Shown here: positions 1 through 52,902 of the stretch, piece after piece
Layout: every line of letters begins with the position of its first letter
Numbering within the stretch: the stretch's first letter is position 1
DNA from: Thermoproteota archaeon
GTDB taxonomy: Archaea > Thermoproteota > Thermoprotei > Gearchaeales > Gearchaeaceae
Length of the DNA: 64,000 bases
NCBI GenBank assembly: GCA_041640715.1
Contig: JBEPZU010000002.1
Span: 7,198 to 71,197 of the forward strand
Reading direction: 5' to 3'
Notes under the pieces: generated by a model
The model's input: the letters and a program-made list of their open reading frames with translations, nothing else
Database searches by the model: none
Told to the model about the DNA's origin: nothing
Translations under genes and position numbers: made by a program

Positions 1-511
1 AAAGTGTGGCCAATATTCCAAAGATGAAGAATTTAACCGTTGCTTCTAGAGAAAAGTATTCTCTTTTGAACTGAGCTACAAGAGCATATGCTGGGAATAA
101 GCTGCTCTCGATCGCTATGAACAATATTAAAAGATCTCTTGCTGAAACTACCATGAGAGATGAAGCCAGAGAAATCAAAAGCAAAGGTTGAGCTTCTCTC
201 CTTGCAATGTTTTCGCTCATAGCTGCTAAAGTTACTAGACCACCGATGATCATCGCTATCCATGAAATGAAGGAAAAACGATCGCTTGCAACAAGACCGT
301 TGTAAAGTAGTACATTTATGTTCAGATACAAAAAGTATATCGAAATGAACAATGAGAGTAACATTGAGCTATAGGATATCGCTTTTGCTATCTTAAATCT
401 CCTGAGTAAGTTAGCGGTTGCTACTAAGATAGAAGCAAGCAAAAGTATGAAGAAAGGAGAGAAATAATAAAGTAAACTCTTAATTTCTTCAAAATTAGTT
501 TCTGCACCCAT
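1..511 (-). CDS. nuoN: Complex I-like antiporter subunit, NuoN-type (partial, runs off left edge; missing from ORF track)
   Basis: Hand translation from ATG at 511 (1 nt after nuoK stop): MGAETNFEEIKSLLYYFSPFFILLL...ARDLLILFIAIESSLFPAYALVAQFKREYFSLEATVKFFIFGILATL, open to the window edge. Matches the NuoN/MrpD pattern DL..lF.a.E...Y.L...EA..K.FI.G. Confidence 0.8.
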   Translation of the reverse strand, partial: MGAETNFEEIKSLLYYFSPFFILLLASILVATANLLRRFKIAKAISYSSMLLSLFISIYFLYLNINVLLYNGLVASDRFSFISWIAMIIGGLVTLAAMSENIARREAQPLLLISLASSLMVVSARDLLILFIAIESSLFPAYALVAQFKREYFSLEATVKFFIFGILATL

Positions 512-512
512 C

Positions 513-818
513 TCAACTTACCTCATCTTTTAGTTTCCTTATTTCGAAAATGTCTACGCTTTGATAGGTTCTATCCATTTCTATAGCTATGGCTAGTCCT
601 AGAGCTACTTCCATGGCTAGGATTATTATTACTATTAATCCTAAAACTTCTCCCAAAGCTCCTTTAATCGTAGCTAATGCTCCTATACTCAATATGACTG
701 CGCTCATCGCTATCTCTACTGATATTATTATTCTTATCAAATGTCTTCTTGCTAAAATACCGTATATACCTATCAAGAACAAAGGTAGTACTGCTATTAG
801 GGCTATAGTTCCGTTCAT
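513..818 (-). CDS. nuoK: NADH-quinone oxidoreductase-like subunit K
   Basis: 101 aa, 3 TM, ISVEIAM and LAMEVALGLAI motifs; ATGA-type overlap with nuoJ. Confidence 0.88.
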   Translation of the reverse strand: MNGTIALIAVLPLFLIGIYGILARRHLIRIIISVEIAMSAVILSIGALATIKGALGEVLGLIVIIILAMEVALGLAIAIEMDRTYQSVDIFEIRKLKDEVS

Positions 819-1309
819 TTTTCTTCACTCGCTATATATATTGACCCTAAGTAAATCGCAAGAGCTGCTACCGCTAAAAACACCAAGGCTAAACCGTAAT
901 TGTTGAAGAGATAAGTTGTTATGATGGATAAGTCTGAAGTAAAAACTATATTAATACTTGCCTTGTTAGAAATCAGCAACGCCGCTATCAAGGCGATTAG
1001 TAGAAATGAGTTGATGATTGCTATGAGGGAAATCCTTCTAGTAGGAGGTATATCTATAACAGGTCTTGTGAGCATTGCAGCAAATATTATTAAGACTAAA
1101 ACTCCTCCTGCGTTTATAAAGAGATACATAAGCGCCAAAAACCAAGCTCCTAGTTGTATTAAAGCCCAAGCACTTGCTACATACATCCCTATTAAGAATG
1201 CTACAGAATACAGTATATCTCTAGTTTTTATGGCCATATAAGAGAAGAATGTAGCCCAAGCAATAGCAGTTAAATAAAGCAAAGTATTTAGGTCTAAATT
1301 CAATTCCAT
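815..1309 (-). CDS. nuoJ: NADH-quinone oxidoreductase-like subunit J
   Basis: 164 aa, 5 TM, LGAWFLALMYLFINAGGVLVLIIFAAML resembles the NuoJ TM3 motif (Y/N-x-G-x-x-x-V-L); upstream of nuoK. Confidence 0.85.
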   Translation of the reverse strand: MELNLDLNTLLYLTAIAWATFFSYMAIKTRDILYSVAFLIGMYVASAWALIQLGAWFLALMYLFINAGGVLVLIIFAAMLTRPVIDIPPTRRISLIAIINSFLLIALIAALLISNKASINIVFTSDLSIITTYLFNNYGLALVFLAVAALAIYLGSIYIASEEK

Positions 1310-1400
1310 TTTTAGGCATATATCGCTAGTGTAGAATTTATATTTTACTTAATATAACGTGGAACGACTTGACAAAGATCGGATTAAATTTTTAAGACAC

Positions 1401-1417
1401 ATATAACACTGTTATAT
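1401..1417. promoter_or_regulatory. Perfect inverted repeat ATATAAC-act-GTTATAT, candidate operator at the rhodanese promoter
   Basis: Read directly from sequence; lies between a TATA-like tract (about 1387-1395) and the ATG at 1420; an extra half-site ATATAAC at 1352-1358. Confidence 0.5.
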
Positions 1418-1419
1418 TA

Positions 1420-2286
1420 ATGGGCGAGGAGGAGAAATTTAAGGAATACGCTAACCCCGATGTGCTCGTGAGTACACAATGGGTTCAAGAACATCTACAA
1501 GATCCAAGCATTAGGATAGTCGAAGTAGACTACGATCCTACTTCGAATTATTATTTAGGCCATATTCCAGGTGCTGTTCTTTTCGATTGGAAGAAAGATT
1601 TGAACCATCCTGTTATTAGAGATATATTAAGCAAGGAGCAACTTGAAGAGCTCTTCTCAAGAAATGGGATTTCTAATGATACAACGATAATATTATATGG
1701 CGATTATAACAATTGGTTTGCTGCTTTCGCTTTCTGGATATTCAAATACTATGGGGTTGAGAAGGTTAAAATTATGGATGGTGGGAGAAAGAAATGGATA
1801 TTAGAAAATAGGCCTTTGACGACTGAGATTCCTTCCTATCCTAGGGCTGTTTTTAAAGCTAAGGAACCTGATGAAACGATAAGGGTGTATCTTGACTATG
1901 TCATCATCGCTCGTAATATGAAAGATAAGGTCTTAATAGACGTGAGAAGCCCTAAGGAGTTTACCGGAGAGATATTAGCGCCGCCTGAATATCCAACCGA
2001 AGCGGCTCAAAGAGGAGGCCACATACCTGGAGCTATAAACATACCTTGGGCTTTAGCAGTTAGAGAGGAGGACGGTACATTTAAAAGCAGGAGAGAGCTA
2101 GAAGAATTATATAGAAGCCGGGGCGTGGTCCCAGAGAAAGAGGTCATAACTTATTGCAGAATAGCAGAAAGAGCATCCCATACTTGGTTCGTGCTCAAAT
2201 ATTTGTTAGGATATCCAAACGTGAAACTCTACGATGGTTCTTGGTCTGAGTGGGGCAACGCTGTCAAATTACCAATAGAAAAGTAA
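1420..2286 (+). CDS. Two-domain rhodanese / thiosulfate sulfurtransferase (CysA/SseA type)
   Basis: [19 protein letters not shown], active-site loop [11 protein letters not shown]-terminal LYDGSWSEW signature. Confidence 0.93.
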
Positions 2287-2294
2287 TTTATTTT

Positions 2295-2960
2295 TTATTT
2301 GATTTTTTTCACTATTATATGATGTAATCCATTCTCTTTTTTATGTTCAACGAATTTTTGGCCTGTCTGATCCTGCCATCTCATCGCCTCTAATTTAGCC
2401 AAAGGATCATCAGTTACGACGTGCACAACTGTTCCTATTTCGACCTTAGAAAAGAGTTCATTGATTTTAGCTAATACTGCAGAACATTCCACCCCTATTT
2501 CAATGAACTCATAGTCTGGGAATTCTGAAAAGCACTTAATCCTAAATTTTTTAATGTTTTCTGTAATTCTTTCTTTTATTTCTTCTATTCTTTTATAATT
2601 TAAATTATCAAGGCTTTCTAAAGGTAGTAACTTAGCTATCCAACCACTTCCATAAGGATCCTTGTTCAAAAGAATAGGTCTATTCACGATTTCTTGATTA
2701 ATATCGATGATTTCGCATTGTATTGGAGACTTAACTACGGTGAAGCTTCTAAAAGATTCTAAAGAACATATAATCTCGTTCTTTCCCATCTTTCTCGAGC
2801 TCATGTATCTTATTATCGTAAATTTGCCTAGGAACCATGCCAAAAGCGATGTAATTCCAATTGTTATCGAATTCCTTTCTATTTTAATCCAAGTGTTCCC
2901 TTCTAGGTCGTATAATAAGGCGCTCGGGAAATAGCAATCTTCTATTCTATCTATATTCAA
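2295..2960 (-). CDS. LbpA/GcvH-like domain (lipoyl Lys replaced by Arg) fused to a C-terminal TusA/SirA-like domain
   Basis: N-terminal H-protein fold motifs (LLY..NTW, TIGIT, ESFR at the ESxK site, NKDPYGSGWI); C-terminal GVEC...VVTDDP..W...G.. TusA pattern; 14-nt overlap with nuoI. Confidence 0.8.
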   Translation of the reverse strand: MNIDRIEDCYFPSALLYDLEGNTWIKIERNSITIGITSLLAWFLGKFTIIRYMSSRKMGKNEIICSLESFRSFTVVKSPIQCEIIDINQEIVNRPILLNKDPYGSGWIAKLLPLESLDNLNYKRIEEIKERITENIKKFRIKCFSEFPDYEFIEIGVECSAVLAKINELFSKVEIGTVVHVVTDDPLAKLEAMRWQDQTGQKFVEHKKENGLHHIIVKKIK

Positions 2961-3378
2961 GTTCCTGGACTCTTGTAACTCTTTTTTGATCTAGGTACAG
3001 GTCTTCTCTCTTGAAGCCTACTATGCTAACCACATGCGTATGGTATATCGCGCCTGGAGGACAATAATCAACACATAAACCACAGTACATGCAGTGTTGT
3101 AGATCTATTTCAGGTATCATTGCAGGTTTCCCTTTTTCATAAGGGACCATGAATATGCATGTATTAGGACAAACTTTAGCGCATATTCCGCATCCTACGC
3201 ATAATTGATCATCTACTTCCAAGGTTCCTCTAAATCTCTCAGGGAAATATATAGTTTTAGTAGGGTATTCGATCGTAGGTCTTTTTAAAAACACATATTT
3301 TGTAACGGTGAAGAATGCTTTCAATGGTCCTATTATCGTTCTCCTAAGAGTCTTGATGAGTTTTACTTCTTTATGCAC
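2947..3378 (-). CDS. nuoI: Complex I-like subunit I (2x[4Fe-4S])
   Basis: TIEYP, RFRG, CVGCGICAKVCP and CMYCGLCVDYCP; GTG start. Confidence 0.92.
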   Translation of the reverse strand: MHKEVKLIKTLRRTIIGPLKAFFTVTKYVFLKRPTIEYPTKTIYFPERFRGTLEVDDQLCVGCGICAKVCPNTCIFMVPYEKGKPAMIPEIDLQHCMYCGLCVDYCPPGAIYHTHVVSIVGFKREDLYLDQKRVTRVQELEYR

Positions 3379-3411
3379 TTCATTATTACTTCTTAGATGC
3401 TAAATATAAGC

Positions 3412-4509
3412 TTAGCTGAGCAGATTTATTGAGATCGCATAATATTTTACTAAGAAAACTAGAATTAAGTTGAAAACTGATAGAGGTAATAGCTTAGTCC
3501 AGCTTAAGCTTAATAACTGATCTATTCTATAGCGAGGAAGCGCTGCCCTTATTATTATATATAAGAACATGAAAAAGTATGTTTTGATCATTAACCAGAA
3601 GGGTCCGCTCATTGGTGATAAGATTCCTGGTAACTGGGGTCCTAACCAGCCCCCGAAGAATAGTATTGCTAGTAAAGTAGCGCTTACGAAGGCTCTTACG
3701 TACATTCCCATGATCAATAAAAGGAAAGGAGAAGCACTATACTCAGTGTTCCAACCTGCTATTATCTCTGATTCTGCATCAGGTATATCGAAAGGCGTCC
3801 TTTCAGCTTCAGCTATTGCAGTTATCAAAAAAAGTATGAAGGTAAGCGGTGCTAAAAATATCAGCCATATTTGCTTTTGTTTCTCGACGATTTCATATAA
3901 ATTCAAGGTTCCTGTAAGAACCACAACTGCGGCCACAGAAAGTAACAAGGGTATTTCGAAGCTTAGGAGCTGAGCTGCTGCCCTAAATCCTCCTATTATG
4001 CTATATTTATTGTTGCTTATCCATCCTGTGAGTAGTATTAATATTGGATTAAAGCTTAGGATTACGAAAATCAAGAGTAAACCTATGTCGAAATAACTCG
4101 ATACTATTGCATGTCTAAGAAGTCCGATCCAATTTATGAAAGGCTCCAACACTAATAGAGTATTTACCACCACGTAATCGTAGGGCATGATGATGATCAA
4201 TAAAAGTGAAATGGCTGTTACTAAAATAGGCATTGAAAGGAAAGCAAACTTATTAGCTTTTGCAGGAACTATTATTTCCTTATTTAAGATTTTGATGAAG
4301 TCTGCTATTAGTTGAAGTATTCCCCATTTGCCTACATAAGTAGGCCCCATCCTTTGCATCGTTCTAGCCCATATTTTCCTTTCAAGATAAATAAAAACTA
4401 TGACATTTACGAGTACTAGGACCAGAGCGAATAGCATCGCTAAGCCAGCTTTTATAATATCTAGCAAAAGCAGATTTGAAGTAATGAAGGGAAATATTCC
4501 TTCCATCAT
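3412..4509 (-). CDS. nuoH: Complex I-like subunit H
   Basis: ERKIWARTMQRMGP, GILQLIADFIKILNKE, AEAERTPFDIPDAESEIIAGWNTEYS, PRYRIDQLL. Confidence 0.95.
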   Translation of the reverse strand: MMEGIFPFITSNLLLLDIIKAGLAMLFALVLVLVNVIVFIYLERKIWARTMQRMGPTYVGKWGILQLIADFIKILNKEIIVPAKANKFAFLSMPILVTAISLLLIIIMPYDYVVVNTLLVLEPFINWIGLLRHAIVSSYFDIGLLLIFVILSFNPILILLTGWISNNKYSIIGGFRAAAQLLSFEIPLLLSVAAVVVLTGTLNLYEIVEKQKQIWLIFLAPLTFILFLITAIAEAERTPFDIPDAESEIIAGWNTEYSASPFLLLIMGMYVRAFVSATLLAILFFGGWLGPQLPGILSPMSGPFWLMIKTYFFMFLYIIIRAALPRYRIDQLLSLSWTKLLPLSVFNLILVFLVKYYAISINLLS

Positions 4510-5621
4510 CTATCTATTTCACCCAAACAAGGGTCAAATGAGCCTAAGATAGCGTATAGATCAGCTACCTTTGAGCCTTTTATTATCTTAGGTAGGCTCA
4601 TGACATGAATATATGCTGGGCTTCTTATCTTTACTCTATATGGCTTAGGGCTTCCATCGCTTACTACCATAAAACCACATTCGCCACGCGAATCTTCTAC
4701 ATAACCGTAACCTATTCCAGGAGGAGGATACAATAAAGCTCTATGTTGATAAGGTCCTGAAGGAATTCTTTTCAGACATTGCCTCACTATGCTTATGCTC
4801 TGCTTTATTTCTTCAACTCTTACGTAAAATCTGTCGAATGTATCTCCCTTCTTTCCAGTAGGGATATCAAAATCTAAGGTTTCGTATACAGCATAAGGCT
4901 CATCTCTTCTCAAATCTCTTTTAACTCCGCATGCCCTTAGCATAGGTCCAGTCCAACCTAGTTCTATAGCTTTAGAAGCACTTACTGGTGCAACATCTAC
5001 AGTTCTGCTAAGGAACACTGGATTGTCATAAATGATTTTTTCATAGTCAGCTAGGTTTTTTTCTACATAGTTCAAAGCCTTATTGGCATAATCCTCGAAG
5101 TTCTGCGGAAGATCATATCTAACTCCTCCTACTCTGAAAAATCCAAAGGTCATTCTTTGACCGCTCATCATCTCAAGCATGTCTATTATCCTATCTCTAT
5201 CTCTTAATCCCCAAGAAAACAATGTAAATAATCCTACATCTGCACAGAATGCAGCCAACCAAACCAGGTGACTTGCTATTCTTTGTAGCTCGCATGCTAT
5301 TACTCTAATCCATTCTGCTCTTTCTGGTACCTTAGCGTCCATGATTTCTTCTACAGCTTTTACAAACCCATATTCCCAAAACATACCGCTAACATAACAA
5401 AGCCTGTTGAGATAAACTGGAATTTGGAAGTAGTTTCTAAGTTCACAAAGCTTCTCTATGCCTCTGTGAATATAACCTAACTTTACATCCGCGTTTATTA
5501 TCACCTCGCCCTCTACTGTTATTATTATATCCATAGGTCCATGTGTGGCAGGATGTTGTGGACCTACGTTTATAATTAATTGCCTTACTTCTCTCCCCTT
5601 TACCTCTTTAACTTCTACCAT
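4506..5621 (-). CDS. nuoD: Complex I-like subunit D (no complete NiFe motifs; retains Cys75 and Cys365)
   Basis: GPQHPATHG, GYIHRGIEK, RLCY, EDSRGE, PYRVKIRSP, C-terminal DPCLGEIDR. Confidence 0.95.
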   Translation of the reverse strand: MVEVKEVKGREVRQLIINVGPQHPATHGPMDIIITVEGEVIINADVKLGYIHRGIEKLCELRNYFQIPVYLNRLCYVSGMFWEYGFVKAVEEIMDAKVPERAEWIRVIACELQRIASHLVWLAAFCADVGLFTLFSWGLRDRDRIIDMLEMMSGQRMTFGFFRVGGVRYDLPQNFEDYANKALNYVEKNLADYEKIIYDNPVFLSRTVDVAPVSASKAIELGWTGPMLRACGVKRDLRRDEPYAVYETLDFDIPTGKKGDTFDRFYVRVEEIKQSISIVRQCLKRIPSGPYQHRALLYPPPGIGYGYVEDSRGECGFMVVSDGSPKPYRVKIRSPAYIHVMSLPKIIKGSKVADLYAILGSFDPCLGEIDR

Positions 5622-6049
5622 TTGTAATCTTTCCTAAGCGGATGTCCTACCCAATGTTCGGGCAATAAAATCCTTCTAAGATCTGGGTTTCCTTCAAAAT
5701 AAACTCCCATGAGATCAAAGGTTTCTCTTTCGTGGAATAGAGCTCCCTCCCACACTTCACAGAGAGAAGGTATTCTAGGATCGTCCCTATCTATCAAAGT
5801 ACCTACGATGACCAATCCTTTACCTTCTAGCTTTCTACAAATGAACATCACTTCTATTGAATTCAATCTATCCACAGCAGTAACAGCAGATAATAGAACA
5901 AACCCTGCATCCTTAAGCCTTTTAGCAGAATCTATCCATTTCTCTTTGGGTATTTTAGCATAATACTTGTATTTGTAAATCTTAAATATCTCTGCGTAAG
6001 GTAAAATGGATTTGATCTCTTTTTCTAATTCTTCGCTCATACTCGCCAA
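5615..6049 (-). CDS. nuoC: Complex I-like subunit C
   Basis: LSAVTAVD, ALFHERETFDLMGVYFEGNPDLRRILLP..GHPLRKD. Confidence 0.93.
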   Translation of the reverse strand: MASMSEELEKEIKSILPYAEIFKIYKYKYYAKIPKEKWIDSAKRLKDAGFVLLSAVTAVDRLNSIEVMFICRKLEGKGLVIVGTLIDRDDPRIPSLCEVWEGALFHERETFDLMGVYFEGNPDLRRILLPEHWVGHPLRKDYKW

Positions 6050-6585
6050 TCTTCCTTTATAATAGGTACACCAGATTTAGGTAAAAATTTCTTTCTTGTC
6101 TCTCCTTTGAGTATTTTTTCTTCAAGCTTTATTATTCCTTCTATTAATGCCTCAGGTCTAGGAGGACAACCAGGTATATATACATCAACAGGTATTATTT
6201 GATCTGCTCCGTCTATGACACTATACATTCCTTTCCAAGGACCTCCGCAAATTGAACATTCGCCAGTGGCTATAACATATTTTGGTTCTGCCATTTGCTC
6301 GTAGAGTGTTTTAACTACAGGTGCAAGTCTTTGTGAAATTGGCCCTGTTATTATCATCAAATCGCATTGTCTTGGGCTATTTCTAGGAAGGACTCCGAAC
6401 CTCTCAAAATCATAATTCGAAGCCCCTGCCACCATCATATCTTCTATAGCACAACATTTTATTCCAAAAACTAGCAACCAAAGTGAATTGCGATTTCCCC
6501 ATACTAATAGTTTGTTTACAAAAGGAAGTTTCCTAGGATTTACTAACCATATTTTTAAATCTTGCCAAATATTGAGGCTTTTCAT
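6037..6585 (-). CDS. nuoB: Complex I-like subunit B (N2 cluster)
   Basis: CCAIE, SPRQCD, YEQMAEPKYVIATGECSICGG, PVDVYIPGCPPRPE. Confidence 0.95.
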   Translation of the reverse strand: MKSLNIWQDLKIWLVNPRKLPFVNKLLVWGNRNSLWLLVFGIKCCAIEDMMVAGASNYDFERFGVLPRNSPRQCDLMIITGPISQRLAPVVKTLYEQMAEPKYVIATGECSICGGPWKGMYSVIDGADQIIPVDVYIPGCPPRPEALIEGIIKLEEKILKGETRKKFLPKSGVPIIKEDWRV

Positions 6586-6661
6586 AGATCTATAGAGGGA
6601 TAGTAAGACATGAGTTATTTATTCTTTCTCCTATAATGATTTGAGGCTATTAAAAGTACCA

Positions 6662-7018
6662 TCATACCCAACGTAGCATTCCTCTCTTAAGGGTATAAGC
6701 TATACTGAACAGAGTGACTAATAATAATGCTGAAACGCCTAACAAACTAGTCATCGTAAATTCGATCGACCTTATGGCCCATATAAGAATTAATATAGCT
6801 ACGATATCTGCTATCAGATATGCGATTCCATAAATATAATATTGTACGCTCATTCTGACCTGAGCTTCTCCTAACAATTCTTCGCCGCATTCATAAGGAG
6901 ATAGCTTTAATTCTGATTTCTTGGATTTATGGGACAGTTTGTAATTAAGAAAGATAGTTATCAACGCAAATCCAATCGAGATTAGTAGGGCTATCGCTAG
7001 TGCGGTGAAAATAAACAT
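6662..7018 (-). CDS. nuoA: Complex I-like subunit A
   Basis: PYECG, QYYIYGIAYLIADIV. Start moved from 7078 to the ATG at 7018 because a TATA-like element lies about 25 nt upstream (7040-7048). Confidence 0.88.
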   Translation of the reverse strand: MFIFTALAIALLISIGFALITIFLNYKLSHKSKKSELKLSPYECGEELLGEAQVRMSVQYYIYGIAYLIADIVAILILIWAIRSIEFTMTSLLGVSALLLVTLFSIAYTLKRGMLRWV

Positions 7019-7212
7019 AAGATATCTTACGCGAACTTTTTTATATACTTTTCTCAGATAATTATTGTTATTCTTCATATAAATGTATATAAATTTATAA
7101 ATTTGGATAAATTAACCGCAATTATATTTAACTCTATTATAATCGGTGTTTTATGGTATTTTTGAAATGTTAGAGGTAATAAACCTTATAAATCTGTAGA
7201 ATATACTTTTAC

Positions 7213-12307: not shown

Positions 12308-13861
12308 TCATTTAAAAAGTTCTGCATCTTGAAGGTAGCTCTTGCCTAATTTTAGGGCAATATAAGCTTTTTGAAGTTCAGATCCTAAATAACAAGCATG
12401 ATCTATTTTTGAAATGAGCCCAAGTTCTGCTACTTTCCGATACATAGCAACAGGATCCTTGCCTTTTATTATCAATTTACTTTTTGTCTCTCTGTAAGAT
12501 GGCTTGTAATGGAGAATTATTTCTTTATTATCTCTGTCCAAATATATTTTAAACCAACCTTTAGGGTCTTGAATATAAAACTCGTTGATATTGTTCGCAT
12601 ATATCACTTCTGCATTTTCTTCCTCTTTTCTTTCATCTTTAAGCTTTTTGTCTCTTAAGAAGAGCAAATCTATGCCTAAACCTTTGGGGAACGTTTTCTT
12701 ATGTCTGCTTATGAAGCCTATCTTCTTAGCTATAAAAATCTCCTTTATGACACCTCTAGTCTTATCGCTTGCTTCAGTACTCAGTACAAAAGAAGCGTTT
12801 ATTTCATAAGCAAACATCATCAATAAAGCGTTCATTCCTGCTGTATCTGCATCTATCAGTTCTGTTATATTGCCAGTTCCAATCAGTATAGGTATTCTGG
12901 GCAATTTTTCTCTGAGAATTTTATATGAATAAAGCGAATCCGAGAACGAAGAGGAGAACGGAGGATCAAGTATGACATCTAATATTACATTTTTAATTTT
13001 CCTTTCCTTGGCAATCTCTAGCATCTCTAATAATAGCTCAACTCTCTTCTTAGGTTCTTTTGGGAAATAAGATTGTTCTAAATCTGCGGGTACTAGTACG
13101 TAATGAACTTCATCCTTCACATTCACTTTTTTCAATAAACTCCTATCCAAGCTGATCACCATGTCTATGTTTAGTTCTATAGCCTTGTTTATCTCCTCCA
13201 AATCCATTGAATCAAGGCTTAATGGTACATCAAAACTTTCGCGCAGAATTCTGATCATTTCTTTAATCTTTTCTACTTTACTTTCATTTGCTAGCATTCC
13301 TATGTCTATTACGTCGGCTCCTGAATCGATGAAATACTTTGCTTTCTTCTTTAATTCTTGTTCACTTAATAATGGTGCGTCTACAATTTCGGCTATTATC
13401 CTTATGGGAAAATCTACTCCATACTTGAGATTCCTCATCATGAAATTCCCTTCTTCTGGCAAAGCTTCCTTAGCTTCGACTTTAGCTATTTCCTCGTCTA
13501 TGATTTTCTTAATTTTCTCTTTAGCTATTTCGTCAGCAGGCACTTCTTTAGATAGCTCGTTAATGTCAAAATTATTGAGTATAAAAGGTATGTCATAAGC
13601 ATGCTTAGGTCCTTTAACTACCTTAACTTTTAACTCATTTTCTACTTTTGATAGGTCTCCTTGTATTAGTCCAGGTAATACAATGCATTCAATTTCTTCA
13701 TTAATATAATTCTTTAATTCGCGAATTATATACGAAGGCCTCATCAAACTAGCTACGGGGAAGTTTAAGGCTATAACCTTACATTTCTTGTTGCATTTCT
13801 TAGCTTGTTCTTCAACTAGATTTTTAGCTAATTGACCTGTTACGAGAAGGATTATGCCCAT
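12308..13861 (-). CDS. Dihydropteroate synthase-related protein (archaeal/methanopterin type) with C-terminal DUF4346-like domain
   Basis: LVTGQLA N-terminal domain, IIAEIVDAP, GADVIDIG, SLDS, GTGNITELIDAD..G.N, C-terminal DPKG.F...DHACYLGSEL.KA. Confidence 0.85.
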   Translation of the reverse strand: MGIILLVTGQLAKNLVEEQAKKCNKKCKVIALNFPVASLMRPSYIIRELKNYINEEIECIVLPGLIQGDLSKVENELKVKVVKGPKHAYDIPFILNNFDINELSKEVPADEIAKEKIKKIIDEEIAKVEAKEALPEEGNFMMRNLKYGVDFPIRIIAEIVDAPLLSEQELKKKAKYFIDSGADVIDIGMLANESKVEKIKEMIRILRESFDVPLSLDSMDLEEINKAIELNIDMVISLDRSLLKKVNVKDEVHYVLVPADLEQSYFPKEPKKRVELLLEMLEIAKERKIKNVILDVILDPPFSSSFSDSLYSYKILREKLPRIPILIGTGNITELIDADTAGMNALLMMFAYEINASFVLSTEASDKTRGVIKEIFIAKKIGFISRHKKTFPKGLGIDLLFLRDKKLKDERKEEENAEVIYANNINEFYIQDPKGWFKIYLDRDNKEIILHYKPSYRETKSKLIIKGKDPVAMYRKVAELGLISKIDHACYLGSELQKAYIALKLGKSYLQDAELFK

Positions 13862-13885: not shown

Positions 13886-14179
13886 CTAGCCGTACCTATA
13901 ACCTATTCCCTTGCCCCACCTAGGATATCTGAAGGCAATATTAGAATATGGACAAACTATTCTACAAGAACCACATTCAACGCAGTTATCGTAGCTAACT
14001 ATTAACCTATCTTCTTCCCATTTATAGACATCTGCAGGACATACCGTTATGCACGGCTTGAGCTTACATTTCAAACATTTTTGATTATCCATTATTACCA
14101 AATGACTTAAATCATCCCTTTTGTATCTAGCTAAAAATAACTTAGCCTCAACATTACTAGCTTTAGCTTGGACTTGCAT
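13886..14179 (-). CDS. fixX: FixX-type ferredoxin
   Basis: SHL, C..C..KPCITVCPA.VY, CVECGSCRIVC, YPRWGKGIGYRYG. Confidence 0.9.
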   Translation of the reverse strand: MQVQAKASNVEAKLFLARYKRDDLSHLVIMDNQKCLKCKLKPCITVCPADVYKWEEDRLIVSYDNCVECGSCRIVCPYSNIAFRYPRWGKGIGYRYG

Positions 14180-14240
14180 ATAGTGTATAATAAATTAAGC
14201 CATAAATAAAGCATTTTTTCGATTTTAATTTAAATTTTTC

Positions 14241-15533
14241 TTAAGGAAATACAAAAGCTCTTATAATACTATAAATATCCCTAAACAAATCTGCTGGCTT
14301 CCTTCTACTAAAAATTATTTTTCTCATTTCCTTTAATTTCAATTCTTTTGGGACACCATCTACAGTATGGATCAACTTTAAGATATCGTTGAGCATATCC
14401 GGATATACATCAAATAACGCTTTGTTATTTCTAAATAATATTGGTACTCTTCTGAATCTCCTAAGATCTCTTAATACAAAACAATTCCTCAACTTTTCTT
14501 CGTATCTTCTAAGCGCATTAACGCTGAAATCTTTAAGTTTATGGGCTTCAACGGCAGTTTCTCCTGCATGTATTCCAGATTCTACCGCGAAGTTTGTACC
14601 TTCCCAGCCTATTACGTTCACCAACATAGCTGCATCTCCTACAACCATAAAGCCATTAGTATAAAGCTTGGGTATTGAATGGTATCCTCCTTCAGGTATT
14701 AAATGCGCAGAATATTCTTTCAACGTACTGTCTTTTATGTAAGGAGCTATTGAAGGATGTCTTTTGAATTCCTCTAACATCTCATTCGGTCTTTTATTCT
14801 TTCTCACGATATCGCTGAGCAGAGCTCCTACACCTATTGACAACGTCTCCCTATTAGTGTATAAAAAGCCACCACCAGTCATACCTTTAACAGGACCGCC
14901 TATTATTGTTGCCGCAATCCCTTCATCAATTCCTAACTTGAAAGTTTCCTCTATCTTGACTCTACCTATTTCTATAACTTCTTTAACCCCTAGCACAACT
15001 TCATGGGGTTTCCACTCTTCATGTAGTCCAAGATCCCTGGCTAAGAGAGAATTAACGCCATCTGCAGCTATAACTATATTTCCGTAAACTTCTCCTCTAT
15101 CGGTTTCGACTCCTGTTACAAATCCTTCTTTGACGATGGGTTTTAAGGCTTGAGTTCTAGTTACGAGTATTGCTCCTGCTTCTTCAGCCTTTTTTGCATA
15201 CCAAGGATCGAATTTGGCTCTTAATGCAGTATACCCGCTTGGATTTTTAGCAAGCCTTTCATCTCTATAAACCAGCTTTATATGTCCTGTATCTGTAAGT
15301 ATCCAGTATTGGTATTCTACGACTTTCCTTTCAAGAGGAGCTTCCTTTACAAAATTGGGTATTAGTTTTTCAAATGCATGTCTTAATAATACACCTCCGA
15401 ACACGTTCTTCTCTCCCGGAATACCACCTCTTTCTATAACTAATGTATTCAAACCAGCGCGAGCAGTAGTTATAGCTGCTGAAATGCCTGCAGGTCCGGC
15501 TCCTACTATTATGACGTCGAATTTTTCAGGCAA
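14241..15533 (-). CDS. fixC: FixC / ETF:quinone oxidoreductase
   Basis: [54 protein letters not shown]. Confidence 0.92.
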
Positions 15534-17397
15534 CTTTAATCACCTTCTTCAAGTCCTCAGAAAGTAAAGGAACTATCTTAAAAAGATCTCCTACTATGCC
15601 GAAGTCTGCAACGTTGAAAATAGGTGCTGTAGGATCTATGTTAATAGCTACGATTATATCTGAGTTTTGAATACCTACTACATGCTGGATTGCACCTGAT
15701 ATACCTATTGCAATGTATAATCTAGGTCTTACAGTCAAACCTGTTTGGCCTATTTGTCTATCCTTAGATATCCATCCTGAATAAACAACCGCTCTTGTAG
15801 CTCCTATTTCAGCGTTTAGTATCTTTGCTAGTTCTTCAATCATAAAAATATTTTTAGGCGAACTTAACCCTTTACCAAAGGAAACTATTATGTTGGCTTC
15901 TTCGAGCTTTGTCTTCTCCTTAGGTATGAATTCTAAAAGTTCGGTATGTATTTTAGATTCATCTATGGGGAATTCTTCTTTAATCAATTCATAATCTTTA
16001 TTGAGCATCATAGGAGGTATTTTAAATACTTTAGGTCTAATGGTGACCATTTGAGGTTTATGCTTGGGGCAAACTATCGTAGACATTTCGTTACCACCGA
16101 AATCTGGCCTTGTAGCTAAAAGCATTCCTGTAGCTGGATCGATGTCCATTTGTGTTACATCTGCAGCTAAGCCAGTAGGTATTAGAGTTGCAACACATCC
16201 TGCCCAATCTCTACCGTTTTGTGTTCCAGGCATCAGCAAGATATCCGGTTTATATTTCAAACAAAGTTGCATGAGGGCAAATGAATAAGGTTCTGTTCTG
16301 TAATGTTCGTATACTTTAGAATCAACATAATATATTTTATCCGCACCATAACTTGCAGCTTCTTCTATTAAATTTTCTACTTTATAACCTACTATCACAG
16401 ATGCGCATTTTACTCCTAAAAGCCTTGACAATCTCCTTGCTTCACCAAGCAGTTCCCAAGAAACCGGGTCTGCTTTACCATACCTATGTTCTACAACACT
16501 CCATACTTCTCCAAAACTTTTAGTTTTATCAAACGCAATTGGTAAAGGCTTAGGTTCTTCATAGACCTCTGAGATCTTAGCACTGAAAGCATTGACCTTG
16601 ATGAGGTTATCTATTAACCATTTAACTGCTTCTTGTTCCTTTCCTCTTCCATCAAATATTTGGCCTTTTTTCCTAGGAGGAGGTGGAAATACCCTTTTAA
16701 CATAAGTAGGAGATCCTCTCAAACCTATTTTATCATCTTCAAGTTTTAAGTCATTTTTATTCCACTTTATGATCTTAGTTCTATAAGCTCTTATTATATC
16801 TGTTATTGTAGGAGTTCTAGGCGTATTTGCTTCTTCGATTATACTTAAGGCTGCAGGCAAACTAGCTTTGACCCTTTCATATCCATCATATACTTTTCTT
16901 CTTGCAATAATGTAACTTTTTTCTAGATTTATTTCTTCGATTTTGTAAGTATATGTAATTATAGGAATTCCAAAGCGAGCGGCTACACCAGGACCCACTT
17001 GACCGGTTTCGCCATCTATAGCTTGTCTTCCAAAGAGTAGCAGAGTGAAGGGGCCATGAATTTCAACTGCCTTTTTTATTGCCATCCAAAGAGTATAGGA
17101 AGTAGCTAGTGTATCTGAACCTGCTAAAGCTCTATCTGAGATATGGTAGGCATTATCTACACCCATTGCTAAAACTTCTCTTAAAGAGCTTTCTGCTTGA
17201 AGAGGTCCCATTGTTAGAGCTGTGATGGTTCCTCCAAATTTTTCCTTAACCTTCAATGCTTCTTCAGTTGCATGGAGATCTGGTGGGTTAGTTATAGCAG
17301 GTACGCCTTCTCGAATTAAGTTATTTGTCTTAGGATCAATTCTCATATCTGCAGAATCAGGAACTTGTTTAATACAAACTATGATGTGCATTCTCAA
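15526..17397 (-). CDS. fixAB: Fused electron transfer flavoprotein beta-alpha (FixA-FixB fusion)
   Basis: N-half [25 protein letters not shown] (EtfB); C-half [42 protein letters not shown] (EtfA); one 623-aa ORF. Confidence 0.92.
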
Positions 17398-39259: not shown

Positions 39260-42200
39260 GTGCAATTACTTTATAGGGAATTATGTCCAAACGATGGAGG
39301 AGATATACTTTCTTCTAGATTAGAGAAGGGATTGGTTTGTGAAAAGTGTATTAACGAAGATGAAGCTTCTGGAATATATGATTTTAATCAATTAGTTAAG
39401 ATTCTTGAGGAGAAAGGTCGACTTCAGGGGGGCTTAAGAGAATATTATGTGCTTAATCAGAAGCTTTATGATTTCGAGAACTTTTCCAAGAATGTATTCG
39501 AGAGTCTCACAAATGCTCAAAGGAGTTGGTTCATAAAGGCCGCCAAGGCTGAAAGCTTTGCAATAACCTATCCCACAGGTTTAGGTAAAACTACTTTCGG
39601 TATGCTTTATTCTCTTTACGTTAAATTCAAAAATGAAGATAGAAAAATAGTATTTCTCGTACCTACTCGATTATTAGTCGCAAAGGTTATCGAACGTCTA
39701 AAAGAATTCGCTTCTAAAGTTCTTATTGATGTAAGAATTATTAGCAGCCTTGAAAACAAGAAAGAAGAGTTAATTGAAGCATTAAAGAATAGATCCTTCG
39801 ATATTGCAGTACTAACTTCTAAGTTTCTATTGAACAATAAGTCCTTATTGTTAAGTAAAGAATTCAGGGGAATTATAGACCTAGTATTTGTGGATGACGT
39901 TGATTCTGTACTAAAAAGCTCAAAAGCCATAGATGTCATCTTGAACTTAATAGGCTTTGATTTAGAAAACGAAGCATTAATGAAATTAAAACAATTAACC
40001 AGGAGGACTGGTAGGGATTCCTTTGAGGAGAAAATGACGCTTCTAGAAGAGGTAAGAAAATATAAGGCTAATAATAAGATAGGTCAGCTGATTTTTTCCA
40101 GCGCTACTACTAGGTTCACAAGTTCTAGGATAAGATTACTAAGGCATCTCTTAGATTTCGAACCAGGTTCCTCGCTTGAAGTATTTAGGAACGTACTCGA
40201 GTTCTATAAATACGTTCCAGAGACGAAACAGATTAAAGAAGCCACATCTTTAATCTCAGAACTAGGAAAAGGAGGTCTGATATTCGTATCTGTAAGTAAC
40301 TCTTCTAGTTTCATAGACAGATTGATCAGCGCTCTAAGCTCGAAAAACTTTAAAGCAGAAGTAGTATCCAGCAAAGTCAATGCTAAGAAGATCTTAGATA
40401 GCTTTGAAAGAGGAGAAATAGATTTACTCATAGGGCATGCAACTTTTTACGGTCCTTTGGTCAGAGGTATAGATCTACCTGGAAGAGTGAAATATGCGAT
40501 TTTTGTAGGAGTTCCCAAGTTCAAATTCTCCTTCGAAATTTTCGAGCGAAATCCTTTAAGGACGCTGTGGCTAGCTAGTATAGTAGTAAACTTCATAGAG
40601 GATTTTGAGCGAAGGCGTTCAATACTCGATTTATCAGCCAAGTTGAAGAATGAAGTTCAGAAATATACTCCTGAAGCATTAAGGGCTCTTACTTACATAA
40701 AACAAGAGACCAAGCTTAGAGTATTAGAATTGACTAAAATATTGTACGATGAGTTAATTGAAGTTTTAAGGGACGAGAAAATCATTAGCGCATTAGAAGA
40801 AAAAAAGAGATTAAGGGTAATTTATGAAAATAATAAAAGATTTCTCTTGATACCTGATTCTTTGACTTACATTCAAGCTTCAGGTAGAACTAGCAGGATG
40901 TATTATGGAGGAATAACTACGGGTTTATCAATAGTTTTGGTCGATGATAAGCGAATATTCGAGGGCCTGAAATACCAGCTAAGCTTCAGGGGTGAACTTT
41001 TCAATTTCCATAGTTTCGATTATTTCCTAAAGAAAAAGGATGAAATATTGGAAATCATTCATAGTGAAAGGGAAGCTATAATTAATAAAGAAGTCAGAGC
41101 TGCAAAATCTATGAAAGAAGCCAAATTGAGGACTGCCCTGTTTGTAGTAGAATCTCCTACGAAAGCTAGAACGATATCTTCCTTCTTTGGTAAGCCGGTG
41201 GTAAGATTAGTTAAAGATCTGAGGGTTTATGAATGTGTAACTGATAAATACATACTTTACATAACCGCTACTAGAGGGCATATTTTTGAATTGGTTTATA
41301 CCCATTCTCCTGCATCAGGCATATATTATGGGATAATAAAGAAGCATGATGAGTTCATACCTATTTATTCCACGATAAAGAAATGCAGAAATTGCGGCGA
41401 ACAATTCACTGAGTATAAAGAAAAGGGCAAATGTCCTTATTGTGGCAGTACCATGATAGAAGATCAGATCAATACAGTTAAAGCCTTACAAGAGTTAGCT
41501 CAAGAAAGCGATTTAGTTATAATAGCTACAGATCCTGATTCTGAAGGAGAGAAGATAGCTAAAGACGTATATCTAGTAGTCAAACCTTTCGCTAAGGAAA
41601 TAAAAAGAGCTGAGATGCATGAAATAACCTTAAATGCCTTCTTGAAGGCTTTAGATAATCTAAAGGAGATCAATGATAGACTTGTTTTAGCACAAATACT
41701 TAGAAGAATAGGGGATAGATGGGTTGGTTTTAGCTTGAGCAATCTTGTACAACAAGAATTCAAGAGAAAGACAATGGGGGTAGGACGTGTCCAAACTCCT
41801 GTCCTAAGTTGGATAGTAGAAAACTATAGGAAGTATAAAAAAAAGAGGAAAAAAAGGCTTATTCTCAACATTAAAATAAACGAGACATTTCTAAAAGTTA
41901 ATGCAAAACCGATCAAGATTAGAAGGTGGACCGCTGGGGTATCTAGAAAAATAAAGAAGCAACTAATAAACAGCAAACTTGAAATCTCAGAGATATCGAC
42001 TGAAAAAGTTGAAGTTCCCCCTCCTAGACCTTTTTCTACGAGCGAATTATTAACTTCAGCAGTACCTAAACTTAGAACCTCCTCTGACAAGATCATGCGG
42101 CTTGCTCAAGATTTATTTGAAGCGGGGTTGATAACTTACCATAGAACGGATAGTCATTATATAAGCTATGTAGGCTTTGAAATAGCTAATAAATACTTAG

Positions 42201-43397: not shown

Positions 43398-44006
43398 ATG
43401 AAAAAGAAATTATTGATCCCGATTTCTGCTGCTGTTATAATAGTCGTCGTCATCGCCTATATTGCTGTTGGCGCTTCTGAGAAGCCTAGGGGGTATGTAC
43501 TTCCTAATCCAATCAATTCTCCAAACTTTGTTCTTCAAAATGCCGTAACAGGAGAGACTGTAGAGTTAAGTAAGCTTTACGGCAAGGTGGTGGCAATTTC
43601 CTTCGTTTATGTTCATTGCCCTGATGTTTGTCCTATAATATTTGCGAGATTCAAGCAAGCAGCTAATGAATTAGATAAAGCAGGATTTTCTGGTCAGTAT
43701 GTGATGCTCCTTATCTCAGTAGATCCTGAGAGAGATATTAAAGACGGCAAAGCTTATATGGAAAAATTAAATGCACCTAGTGAAGTTATTTTCTTAGTAG
43801 GGAATAGAACAGTTCTACAACAAGTTTGGAATAAGTATGGTGTTTATGTAGAGAAAGTAGGGACTGGAGAAAACTATACCGTAACTCATTCAGTTATAAT
43901 AATATTGTTAGACAAACAATTGAGACAAAGAATATACTTCGGTAACATATTAAGTTGGTCTCCCGAAGATTTATATCATGATATGGTATTACTGCTTAAG
44001 GAATGA
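43398..44006 (+). CDS. SCO1/SenC copper chaperone
   Basis: N-terminal anchor, FVYVHCPDVCP (CxxxC), ISVDPERD, conserved His in VTHS. Confidence 0.92.
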   Translation: MKKKLLIPISAAVIIVVVIAYIAVGASEKPRGYVLPNPINSPNFVLQNAVTGETVELSKLYGKVVAISFVYVHCPDVCPIIFARFKQAANELDKAGFSGQYVMLLISVDPERDIKDGKAYMEKLNAPSEVIFLVGNRTVLQQVWNKYGVYVEKVGTGENYTVTHSVIIILLDKQLRQRIYFGNILSWSPEDLYHDMVLLLKE

Positions 44007-52506: not shown

Positions 52507-52902
52507 TTAGGAAATTTTGGCTCTTGATACGATGAGCATGCCTTTCTCAATCAAAGAACAAGAACATTTAGCTACTACAGTTCCTTCACGTTTTAATGCC
52601 CATTTTAATAAAGGCAATATCGCTTTTCTTAATTCTTTTCCTTCTTTAGTTAAGCTGTATTCAACTCTAGGGGGTTTTTCATTGTAAGATTTCCTTTTGA
52701 CCAACCCTTTGCTATGTAATTCTTTGAGTAGATAGGAAAGCATCTTAGGTGTTATAGGGCTTAATTCTCTGATAAGTTCATTGAATCTGCATTTTCTATG
52801 ATTTCCTAACTCGTTTATTATCAGTAAAGACCATTTCTTTGCTATTAAATCTACTACACCTTCAAGAGGACATAGACAAACCACGTTATTTTTCCTGGTC
52901 AT
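52507..52902 (-). CDS. HxlR (DUF24)-family winged-helix regulator with CxC motifs at both ends
   Basis: KKWSLLII, RFNEL..L..ITPKMLS..LKEL...GLV.R....PPRVEYSLT..G; C9xC11 and C113xC115. Confidence 0.9.
   Translation of the reverse strand: MTRKNNVVCLCPLEGVVDLIAKKWSLLIINELGNHRKCRFNELIRELSPITPKMLSYLLKELHSKGLVKRKSYNEKPPRVEYSLTKEGKELRKAILPLLKWALKREGTVVAKCSCSLIEKGMLIVSRAKIS

What the first reader, a model, noticed from the sequence alone, without database searches (positions are those of the whole stretch)
2295..2960. LbpA-like lipoate-binding protein that cannot be lipoylated, fused to TusA
Seen: the ESxK lipoylation site reads ESFR (Arg71). Cys9 (EDCYFP) and Cys143 flank the H-protein domain, and a TusA domain follows with GVEC159 instead of GLxCPxP. 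Known: the paired N- and C-terminal cysteines separate sulfur-oxidation LbpA from glycine-cleavage GcvH (recalled from the sHdr/LbpA literature). Inference: a lipoate-independent three-Cys sulfur carrier in which TusA may replace the lipoyl arm.
Basis: partly seen in the sequence, partly recalled or inferred. Interest (0 to 1): 0.75.

Follow-up and report, generated by a model that had tools for sequence, protein, structure and literature searches.

The report
Lysine-less LbpA–TusA fusion with rhodanese partner
This archaeal gene fuses a relative of the lipoate-binding sulfur-oxidation protein LbpA, which has lost the lysine that carries lipoate but kept its two special cysteines, to a TusA sulfur-carrier domain; it almost always sits tail-to-tail with a rhodanese, so it is most likely an uncharacterised, lipoate-free cysteine relay for moving sulfur inside the cell.

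Summary
Window 2295-2960 (minus strand, TTG start) encodes a 221-aa protein with a GCV_H domain (residues 19-121) and a TusA domain (156-219). Arg71 sits where H-proteins carry the lipoyl-lysine. Cys9, Cys143 and Cys159 are present. The gene is real: about 170 distinct full-length relatives exist in uncultured Nitrososphaeria and Thermoplasmata. Cys9 and Cys143 are essentially invariant. Position 71 is Arg in 75% and Lys in 19%, and it switches often between relatives. The H-domain's nearest stand-alone relatives are genuine LbpA proteins encoded in sHdr sulfur-oxidation clusters, and both LbpA cysteines align with Cys9 and Cys143. No sHdr or dedicated lipoylation gene lies near any fusion gene. 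The one constant neighbour is a 288-aa tandem rhodanese (CRIGERS-type loop), convergent and 0-18 nt away, in about 50 of 60 genomes. Other neighbours vary by lineage: the nuo operon here, an Elp3 operon in 16 genomes, and an E1-rhodanese/SAMP1/molybdenum-cofactor cluster in one. Best reading: a lipoate-independent cysteine persulfide carrier loaded by the rhodanese, probably feeding biosynthetic thiolation rather than sHdr-type sulfur oxidation. Cysteine distances could not be measured. I rate it a new variant of a known kind, of moderate to high interest.

The parts
2295..2960 (-). CDS of the 221-aa LbpA-like/TusA fusion protein (TTG start at 2960, stop codon at 2295-2297)
   Evidence: ORF list and sequence; Pfam GCV_H plus TusA; 93 homologue clusters; AF2 model pLDDT 95.6
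2526..2960 (-). LbpA-like H-protein domain (residues 1-145). It includes Cys9 (2934-2936), Arg71 at the lipoyl-Lys position (2748-2750) and Cys143 at the domain junction (2532-2534).
   Evidence: Foldseek to GcvH structures, TM 0.87. 30-36% identity to Thermomicrobium sHdr-cluster LbpAs, with both Cys aligned. Cys9 168/168 and Cys143 168/169 in family members.
2298..2513 (-). TusA domain (residues 150-221) with the active-site-equivalent Cys159 (2484-2486) in GVEC(S)AV, in place of the canonical GLxCPxP
   Evidence: Pfam TusA 30.5 bits; Foldseek to E. coli TusA 3lvj_C, TM 0.83; Cys159 in 94/94 sequences
1420..2286 (+). Partner gene: a 288-aa tandem-domain rhodanese (thiosulfate/3-MST-type sulfurtransferase). 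Catalytic Cys246 (2155-2157) lies in the loop CRIAERAS. The gene is convergent with the fusion gene, 8 nt between the stop codons.
   Evidence: Pfam Rhodanese x2; NCBIfam 3-mercaptopyruvate sulfurtransferase-like, below cutoff; found immediately downstream and convergent in about 50 of 60 genome loci at 61-83% identity; loop CRIGER(S/A)S conserved
2947..3378 (-). nuoI (2x[4Fe-4S] subunit of complex I). Its stop overlaps the fusion gene's TTG start by 14 nt, so the fusion gene is probably co-transcribed with nuoA-B-C-D-H-I (7078 down to 2947).
   Evidence: The same arrangement occurs in relatives L004/L005 (60% identity) and L068 (53% identity).
1310..1419 (.). Divergent intergenic region between the rhodanese gene (+) and nuoJ (-). 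It must hold the promoter(s) for the rhodanese and for the downstream half of the split nuo operon (nuoJ 815-1309, nuoK 513-818, nuoL/M-type antiporter subunit (Proton_antipo_M) from 511).
   Evidence: Gene layout. Promoters are inferred, not tested.

Best explanation
The gene encodes a lipoate-independent protein sulfur carrier derived from an LbpA-TusA fusion. It works as a two-gene module with the convergent tandem rhodanese.

Inferred mechanism:
1. The rhodanese forms a persulfide on its CRxxER-loop cysteine, from thiosulfate or another sulfane donor.
2. It passes the sulfur to Cys159 of the TusA domain.
3. The two LbpA-type cysteines (Cys143 at the ordered domain junction and Cys9 at the N-terminus) accept, hold or resolve that sulfur in place of a dihydrolipoyl arm.
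4. The H-fold, with a conserved basic hairpin tip (Arg or Lys), serves as the docking surface.

The most likely destination is biosynthetic thiolation: tRNA wobble-U34 2-thiolation and molybdenum-cofactor synthesis via E1-rhodanese/SAMP proteins. sHdr-type dissimilatory oxidation is less likely. In the window's lineage the module is expressed with complex I genes.

Shown: the domain architecture, loss of Lys, conservation of the cysteines, homology to LbpA, and linkage to the rhodanese.
Inferred: every sulfur-transfer step and the acceptor.
For: Architecture and fold.

Cysteines and position 71: Cys9, Cys143 and Cys159 are invariant, while position 71 is R 127, K 32, M 5, T 3, V 1, S 1 among 169 distinct full-length members. 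There are at least 18 Lys/non-Lys switches on a rough NJ tree. So the cysteines are constrained and a lipoyl-lysine is not.

LbpA homology: the nearest stand-alone relatives have an N-terminal Cys, the ESGKWVGP Lys and a C-terminal C(F/L)RC motif. Two of them lie in type II sHdr clusters with EtfAB, EMO, two GCV_H genes and LplA. Cys9 and Cys143 align on the LbpA cysteines.

Rhodanese partner: it is convergent, 0-18 nt away, in about 50 of 60 species-level genomes from two archaeal phyla. It is 61-83% identical, with a conserved catalytic loop.

Destination:
- Elp3 (TIGR01211, 607 bits) lies directly upstream on the same strand, mostly 40 nt or less away, in 16 of 60 genomes.
- In L001 the rhodanese abuts a MoeB/MoeZ-like E1-rhodanese, SAMP1, MoaA, MoaD, MoaE and MoeA.
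- TiaS and TrmO neighbours occur in Caldarchaeales, and MOSC and tRNA-binding neighbours in L069.
- No sHdrB3, EMO or sLpl(AB) homologue was found in 0.98 Mb of flanks.
- Some genomes carry a separate canonical GcvH with ESIKA, so the fusion is not their H-protein.

Literature: rhodanese-to-TusA transfer and physical TusA-LbpA association are documented for sulfur oxidisers (PMC11094781). TusA's roles in tRNA 2-thiolation and molybdenum-cofactor synthesis, and the eukaryotic Tum1 to Uba4 to Urm1 relay that works alongside Elongator, are from my own knowledge of the literature.
Against: - No biochemical data exist.
- The rhodanese is convergent, not co-transcribed.
- The tRNA and molybdenum-cofactor neighbours are lineage-specific. 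Only about one third of genomes have them, and housekeeping genes are common neighbours by chance.
- In the window itself the context is the nuo operon, which points to no particular acceptor.
- Whole genomes could not be checked for sHdr, NcsA, UbaA or cysteine desulfurases.
- The TusA domain lacks the CPxP motif, and its Pfam score is only just above threshold.
- Three invariant cysteines could equally be metal ligands.
Confidence: 0.55

Rival explanations
1. Dissimilatory sulfur oxidation. The fusion is a streamlined LbpA that delivers TusA-bound sulfane sulfur to an sHdr-like complex encoded elsewhere in the genome, with cysteines doing the work of the lipoyl arm.
For: The H-domain is closest to sHdr-cluster LbpAs, and both LbpA cysteines are conserved. 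Rhodanese, TusA and LbpA are all regular parts of sHdr systems, and TusA co-purifies with LbpA in Aquifex (PMC11094781). In the window lineage the gene is co-transcribed with respiratory complex I genes.
Against: No sHdrB3, EMO or sLpl(AB) homologue lies in 0.98 Mb around 68 fusion loci or in the 64-kb window. Published sHdr-lbpA genes are described as always clustered (PMC6067878, PMC11094781). All 95 published LbpAs keep the Lys. The neighbours here are housekeeping genes (Elp3, GatDE, EF-2, TFB).
Confidence: 0.15
2. Sulfide release or thiosulfate assimilation. Cys9 and Cys143 act as a resolving dithiol, a protein mimic of dihydrolipoate. They reduce the TusA persulfide to H2S and form a disulfide that is then re-reduced, giving a rhodanese-dependent thiosulfate reductase that supplies sulfide for Fe-S clusters and cysteine.
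For: Dihydrolipoate is a classical sulfane acceptor of rhodanese (cited in PMC6067878). The cysteine pair is retained while the lipoyl-Lys is lost. The rhodanese partner is TST-type. The gene is embedded among Fe-S-rich complex I genes in this lineage.
Against: No reductase or thioredoxin partner is conserved nearby. The geometry of the cysteines is unknown. The idea is wholly inferential.
Confidence: 0.12
3. Metal or cluster site. The three invariant cysteines, plus a conserved His, Glu or Asp such as His180, Glu158 or Asp184, bind Zn or an Fe-S cluster that staples the two domains together. The protein would then be a redox or structural module, not a persulfide carrier.
For: There are three invariant Cys and several nearly invariant His, Asp and Glu residues. 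The inter-domain arrangement is confidently rigid (pTM 0.87, linker pLDDT about 94). sHdr-type LbpAs end in a CxRC motif, which looks like a metal-binding motif.
Against: Cys159 occupies exactly the persulfide-carrying position of TusA. The invariant genomic partner is a sulfurtransferase. No fourth ligand is invariant.
Confidence: 0.1
4. Degenerate relic. Only the TusA domain works, and the H-like domain is an inactive remnant with no role of its own.
For: The defining Lys is lost.
Against: The H-domain is strongly conserved, including the hairpin motif (EGPRHFDVVRSP in Nitrososphaerales), Cys9 and the CFxEFPD junction, across two phyla. The model is high-confidence throughout.
Confidence: 0.05

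Closest known systems
[quoted passage not shown] 2018, PMC6067878; type II clusters as in Thermomicrobium, locus L066)
   Same: It has the H-protein fold. It is 30-47% identical over the whole LbpA length. The N-terminal Cys and the C-terminal Cys (hxCF) are homologous. LbpA is functionally connected to TusA and rhodanese.
   Different: Lys is replaced by Arg (75% of the family). A TusA domain is fused after the C-terminal Cys. No shdr or sLpl(AB)/LipS1/S2 genes lie nearby. It occurs in uncultured Nitrososphaeria and Thermoplasmata, not in known sulfur oxidisers.
TusA/SirA sulfur carrier (E. coli TusA, PDB 3lvj; Pfam PF01206)
   Same: It has the two-layer alpha/beta fold (TM 0.83), a Cys at the N-terminus of helix 1, and the conserved DD(P) strand motif.
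   Different: The motif is GVEC(S/Q)AV, not GLxCPxP. It is fused to an H-domain. An extra invariant Cys lies 16 residues upstream. Its partner is a tandem rhodanese, not IscS.
GcvH, the glycine cleavage H-protein
   Same: It has the same fold (TM 0.87, rmsd 1.7-2.0 A) and the generic core residues (W24, G35, E68, N88, W107).
   Different: There is no lipoyl-Lys. It scores below the NCBIfam GcvH cutoffs (65 against 117 bits). No gcvT or gcvP neighbours are present. Some host genomes carry a separate canonical GcvH.
Multidomain or relay sulfurtransferases: Staphylococcus CstA (rhodanese-TusA-DsrE), the Rhd-TusA-DsrE relays of sulfur oxidisers, and the eukaryotic Tum1 (tandem rhodanese) to Uba4 to Urm1 relay. 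These are cited from my own knowledge, plus PMC11094781.
   Same: A rhodanese is paired with a TusA-type carrier plus a further Cys-bearing module. The link to Elp3, E1-rhodanese and SAMP neighbours parallels the Tum1/Uba4/Urm1/Elongator logic.
   Different: The third module here is an LbpA-derived H-fold, not DsrE. The rhodanese is a separate, convergent gene. No experimental data exist.

Membership tests
LbpA (sHdr-associated lipoate-binding protein) | H-protein (GCV_H) fold | tested here: met
   Pfam GCV_H 66 bits; Foldseek TM 0.87 to GcvH structures
LbpA (sHdr-associated lipoate-binding protein) | Conserved cysteines near the N- and C-termini that GcvH lacks (PMC6067878) | tested here: met
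   Cys9 and Cys143 align with the Cys of a Thermomicrobium sHdr-cluster LbpA. They are present in 168/168 and 168/169 family members.
LbpA (sHdr-associated lipoate-binding protein) | Strictly conserved lipoate-binding lysine | tested here: not met
   Arg71 (AGA) lies at that column. Family counts: R 127, K 32, other 10.
LbpA (sHdr-associated lipoate-binding protein) | Encoded in or next to shdr genes and the sLpl(AB)/LipS1/S2 maturation genes | tested here: not met
   No sHdrB3, EMO or sLpl(AB) homologue in 0.98 Mb of flanks or in the window. Whole genomes could not be checked.
LbpA (sHdr-associated lipoate-binding protein) | Lipoylated in vivo and required for sulfur oxidation | not testable with these tools
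   Needs an anti-lipoate blot or mass spectrometry, and genetics.
TusA (PF01206) | TusA alpha/beta fold and profile match above threshold | tested here: met
   30.5 bits against a 28.6 cutoff; TM 0.83 to 3lvj_C
TusA (PF01206) | Conserved cysteine at the N-terminus of helix 1 | tested here: met
   Cys159 starts helix 159-170 in the model. It is present in 94/94 sequences.
TusA (PF01206) | CPxP signature after the cysteine | tested here: not met
   The sequence is C-S-A-V here. Position 160 is Pro in only 5 of 39 representatives.
TusA (PF01206) | Carries a persulfide (or thiosulfonate) on that cysteine | not testable with these tools
   Needs persulfidation mass spectrometry.
GcvH (glycine cleavage H-protein) | Lipoyl-lysine in E-S-x-K, and a score above the curated family cutoffs | tested here: not met
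   Arg71 is at that position. NCBIfam PRK01202 gives 65 against a cutoff of 117, and TIGR00527 gives 49 against 116.
GcvH (glycine cleavage H-protein) | Association with gcvT/gcvP | tested here: not met
   None appears among the called or annotated neighbours. A separate canonical GcvH is present in L044/L065.

The most novel reading that the evidence does not exclude
The rhodanese plus LbpA-derived/TusA module may be the so far unidentified sulfur-mobilising front end of the archaeal ubiquitin-like (SAMP/UbaA) thiolation system. It would be a lipoate-free, three-cysteine relay supplying sulfur for tRNA wobble-uridine 2-thiolation (working with Elp3) and for molybdenum cofactor in Nitrososphaeria and Thermoplasmata. 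It would also reveal what the enigmatic conserved cysteines of LbpA are for: direct sulfur exchange with TusA.
Probability: 0.3. Interest if true: 0.75.

Novelty: new variant of a known kind. Interest (0 to 1): 0.6.

Why it matters
LbpA was recognised in 2018 as giving lipoate a new role in sulfur oxidation. The function of its two conserved cysteines is still not explained in the papers I could search. This family is a natural experiment. The lipoyl-lysine has been lost or made dispensable many times, while both cysteines stay invariant and a TusA domain is welded onto the C-terminal one. That argues the cysteines form a functional unit with TusA, independent of lipoate.

The family is widespread in uncultured soil and thermal Nitrososphaeria and Thermoplasmata. 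It is annotated only as 'glycine cleavage H protein' or 'TusA family protein', both of which mislead metabolic reconstructions: a false glycine-cleavage or sulfur-oxidation call. Its strict pairing with a rhodanese, and its operon with Elp3 in one large clade, give a testable lead on how these archaea feed sulfur into tRNA and cofactor thiolation.

Tried and rejected
1. Measuring Cys9-Cys143-Cys159 distances. The structure tool returns only confidence and secondary structure, and no coordinates appear in /data, so this test could not be run.
2. Testing whether the ~120-150-aa 'stand-alone' relatives inside the fusion clade are genuine. Most are fragments of fusion proteins cut by contig ends.
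3. An NJ tree of H-domains. Most fusions group next to the Cys-bearing LbpA clade, with canonical GcvH further away. Three fusion representatives fall elsewhere and no support values were computed, so I use it only qualitatively.
4. A radical-SAM gene next to the Lys-bearing fusion in L052 was considered as a possible lipoyl synthase (LipS). From its sequence alone (580 aa, not run against any profile library, so my own reading) it does not look like one; I read it as tetraether-lipid-synthase-like.
5. LplA about 6 kb downstream in the window's lineage (L004, L005, L068). It is separated by nuoJKM, PhoU and an integrase, and it is absent near other family members. I treat it as synteny, not linkage.
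6. A search of the whole 64-kb window for sHdr, DsrE or SQR-type genes found none. It found EtfAB-FixCX, an E3/MerA-like flavoprotein and ferredoxins, all far from the gene.
7. Six literature searches found no description of an H-protein/LbpA-TusA fusion.
8. The sequencing-error explanation for Arg71 is rejected.

Full report
**1. What is in the sequence**

Window 2295-2960 holds a 221-aa ORF on the minus strand with a TTG start.
- The start lies inside the last codons of nuoI (2947-3378), a 14-nt overlap with an AGGA a few bases upstream. The gene is therefore very probably translated from the nuoA-B-C-D-H-I transcript.
- Pfam finds GCV_H (19-121, 66 bits) and TusA (156-219, 30.5 bits, just above the 28.6 cutoff).
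- The curated NCBIfam GcvH models are matched only far below their cutoffs (65 against 117 bits).
- A family profile aligned to solved H-proteins puts the family's Arg exactly on the lipoyl-lysine of E-S-V-K-A.
- Arg71 recurs in three other contigs of the same MAG lineage and in a 95%-identical cluster, so it is not a read error.

**2. A real, conserved family**

- The large protein collection holds 93 clusters (E 1e-134 to 1e-26), nearly all with both domains. Where named, they are called 'glycine cleavage system H protein' or 'sulfurtransferase TusA family protein', from Nitrososphaerales or Caldarchaeales MAGs.
- A scan of one genome per species found 60 loci in uncultured Nitrososphaeria/Thaumarchaeota, in soil MAGs labelled Bathyarchaeota, and in Thermoplasmata. 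None comes from a named cultured species.
- The window matches a 'Thermoproteota archaeon' MAG at 94-97%.
- An exhaustive profile search of 1.8 billion cluster representatives gave 54 proteins below 1e-30, of which 39 are two-domain representatives.
- Pooling all sources gives 169 non-identical full-length members. Position 71 is Arg in 127, Lys in 32, Met in 5, Thr in 3, and Val and Ser in 1 each. Cys9 is present in 168 of 168 and Cys143 in 168 of 169. Cys159 was required by that filter, but it was 94/94 in the unfiltered first set.
- On a rough NJ tree, position 71 needs at least 18 Lys/non-Lys changes. Sister sequences differ only there, for example LESLKFVGP against LESERFVGP.
- So the cysteines are under strict constraint and a lipoyl-lysine is not. 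What is kept at the hairpin tip is mostly a basic residue.

**3. LbpA-like, not GcvH-like**

- After the fusions, the best-scoring representatives are proteins of about 148 aa. They have an N-terminal G-C-x-x-P-E-D, the lysine motif E-S-G-K-W-V-G-P, and a C-terminal h-x-C-(F/L)-R-C that aligns on Cys143.
- Two members of this group with long contigs (a Thermomicrobium genome and a metagenome contig) lie in clusters of Fer4/CCG proteins, EtfB, EtfA, a 680-700-aa Fer4/CCG protein, two GCV_H genes and an LplA-type ligase. This is the type II sHdr-LbpA cluster described by Tanabe et al. 2024 (PMC11094781).
- The window protein aligns with the Thermomicrobium LbpAs at 30-36% identity. In one case the alignment runs from Cys9 to I-K-C-F, with R71 opposite the LbpA lysine.
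- Other family members reach 44-47% identity to these LbpAs.
- Canonical GcvH representatives score lower: 46-57 bits against 62-78 bits for the Cys-bearing stand-alone relatives, sHdr-type LbpAs included (62-76 bits), with the window's H-domain alone as query. Structural alignments to GcvH have 21-28% identity.
- Cao et al. 2018 state that LbpAs share a strictly conserved lysine and, as their most conspicuous feature, two conserved cysteines near the N- and C-termini that GcvH lacks (PMC6067878).
- Two genomes with the fusion also encode a separate canonical GcvH (VESIKAVSEVYAP) 8 kb away.

**4. Structure**

- An AlphaFold2 model built on a 65-sequence alignment has mean pLDDT 95.6 and pTM 0.87. 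No block of ten residues falls below 86, including the junction (141-150: 94).
- Foldseek finds GcvH structures (TM 0.87 on the target) and E. coli TusA in the IscS complex (TM 0.83).
- Cys159 begins helix 159-170, which is the TusA persulfide position. Cys143 lies in an ordered linker after helix 125-138. Cys9 starts the second strand of an N-terminal hairpin.
- The high pTM for a two-domain protein suggests a defined docking of TusA on the H-domain.
- The model coordinates are not exposed to me.

**5. Genomic context**

- The one constant neighbour is the 288-aa tandem rhodanese (window 1420-2286, plus strand). It lies immediately downstream and convergent in about 50 of 60 genome loci. Several of the exceptions are contig ends. 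Stop codons are 0-18 nt apart, and the rhodanese is 61-83% identical while the fusion is only 31-60%.
- Its catalytic loop is C-R-I-G-E-R-(S/A)-S (CRIAERAS here), a CRxGxR thiosulfate-sulfurtransferase-type loop.
- Everything else depends on lineage:
  - In the window's thermophilic clade (the window, L004/L005 at 60% identity, and L068 at 53%), the pair is inserted between nuoI and nuoJ and splits the nuo operon.
  - In 16 Nitrososphaeria genomes, Elp3 (TIGR01211, 607 bits) lies directly upstream on the same strand, usually 40 nt or less away. GatD/GatE, fibrillarin, Nop5 and Trm1 are nearby.
  - In L001, the rhodanese is followed by a MoeB/MoeZ-like E1 with a rhodanese domain, SAMP1, MoaA, MoaD, MoaE and MoeA.
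  - In a Caldarchaeales MAG the neighbours are TiaS and TrmO, and there is no rhodanese.
  - L069 has MOSC and tRNA-binding proteins.
  - In the 'Bathyarchaeota' soil clade the neighbours are EF-2 and TFB.
- tblastn with sHdrB3, EMO, EtfB and sLpl(AB) from the Thermomicrobium cluster found nothing relevant in 0.98 Mb of flanks or in the window.

**6. Interpretation**

Arg cannot carry lipoate, which is amide-linked to a Lys epsilon-amine (established biochemistry). The window protein is therefore lipoate-free.
- The cysteines are invariant, the domain is homologous to LbpA, the Cys occupies the TusA position, and the partner is a rhodanese. Together these make a cysteine-persulfide carrier the best-supported function (confidence about 0.55).
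- The likely order of transfer is rhodanese Cys246, then TusA Cys159, then Cys143 and Cys9. This order is inferred from what is known of rhodanese-TusA-DsrE relays (PMC11094781) and is not shown here.
- Lys-bearing fusions exist and the outgroup has Lys. The fusion therefore probably preceded repeated loss of the lysine.
- For the acceptor I favour biosynthetic thiolation, meaning tRNA s2U34 and molybdenum cofactor through E1-rhodanese/SAMP. The reasons are the Elp3 operon, the E1-Rhd/SAMP1/Moco cluster and the lack of any sHdr linkage. This evidence is lineage-specific and only suggestive.
- The rivals are listed with their tests: sHdr-linked oxidation (0.15), a resolving dithiol that releases sulfide (0.12), a metal or cluster site (0.10), and a relic domain (0.05).

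**7. Comparison and novelty**

- The protein works like a TusA-type carrier and is homologous to LbpA. It fails two defining LbpA features (the lysine and sHdr linkage) and one TusA signature (CPxP).
- I therefore do not file it as a member of LbpA, GcvH or canonical TusA. I call it a new variant: an LbpA-derived, lysine-less H-domain fused to a TusA-like domain.
- Six full-text searches found no description of such a fusion. The searchable library is incomplete, so this is absence of evidence only.

**8. Limits**

- There is no biochemistry, no coordinates and no whole-genome co-occurrence data.
- The NJ trees have no support values.
- The genome scan used a peptide pattern around GVEC, so conservation of that motif within those 60 loci is partly by construction.

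Noticed in passing
window 1-7078 (minus strand), with 1310-1419: The 11-subunit-type nuo operon is split. nuoA-B-C-D-H-I runs into the fusion gene. Then comes the rhodanese on the other strand, and nuoJ-K-L/M restart after a 110-bp divergent spacer. No nuoE/F/G is present in the window. The insertion is conserved in relatives at 53-60% identity, one of which has an extra aldo-keto reductase gene.
   Followed up: partly
window 39260-42985 (+): A 1241-aa reverse gyrase (zf_Rg, DEAD, Toprim, Topoisom_bac). The host is therefore a thermophile or hyperthermophile, despite 35% GC.
   Followed up: partly
window 13886-17397 (-): A fused EtfB-EtfA protein (623 aa) followed by FixC-like ETF:quinone oxidoreductase and a 97-aa ORF that I read as a FixX-like ferredoxin from its sequence only (no family search). 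It sits next to a 517-aa pterin-binding/DUF4346/DUF6513 protein at 12308-13861.
   Followed up: partly
window 59390-61700 (+): A CofD-CofC-CofE cluster for coenzyme F420 biosynthesis.
   Followed up: partly
window 47812-49119 (+) and 44003-44620 (+): A 435-aa and a 205-aa predicted membrane protein with no Pfam match. The latter follows an SCO1/SenC copper-chaperone-like gene at 43398-44006.
   Followed up: no
window 52507-54371: An HxlR-type regulator lies divergent from a 510-aa pyridine-nucleotide-disulfide oxidoreductase with a dimerisation domain (dihydrolipoamide dehydrogenase or MerA-like). It is 50 kb from the fusion gene, and no link was shown.
   Followed up: no
P0117, P0132 (proteins): These are rare fusion variants with a canonical TusA G-L/I-x-C-P-G-P motif. 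P0132 keeps the Lys but lacks both Cys9 and Cys143 (G-D-Q-F-P and I-V-F-Y). This hints that the Lys and the cysteine pair may be alternative solutions. It is a single example.
   Followed up: no
P0122 (1391 aa): A giant protein with three tandem Lys-less H-protein-like domains, followed by an FAD-oxidase-like region and a Fer4/CCG (HdrD/GlcF-like) C-terminus. This is another lysine-free use of the H-fold.
   Followed up: no
L004 13733-14746, L005 13207-14238, L068 15629-16672: A lipoate-protein ligase (LplA-B_cat) gene lies about 6 kb downstream of the fusion gene in the window's lineage, beyond nuoJKM, a PhoU-like gene and a XerC-type integrase. In the window it would lie off the left end.
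   Followed up: partly
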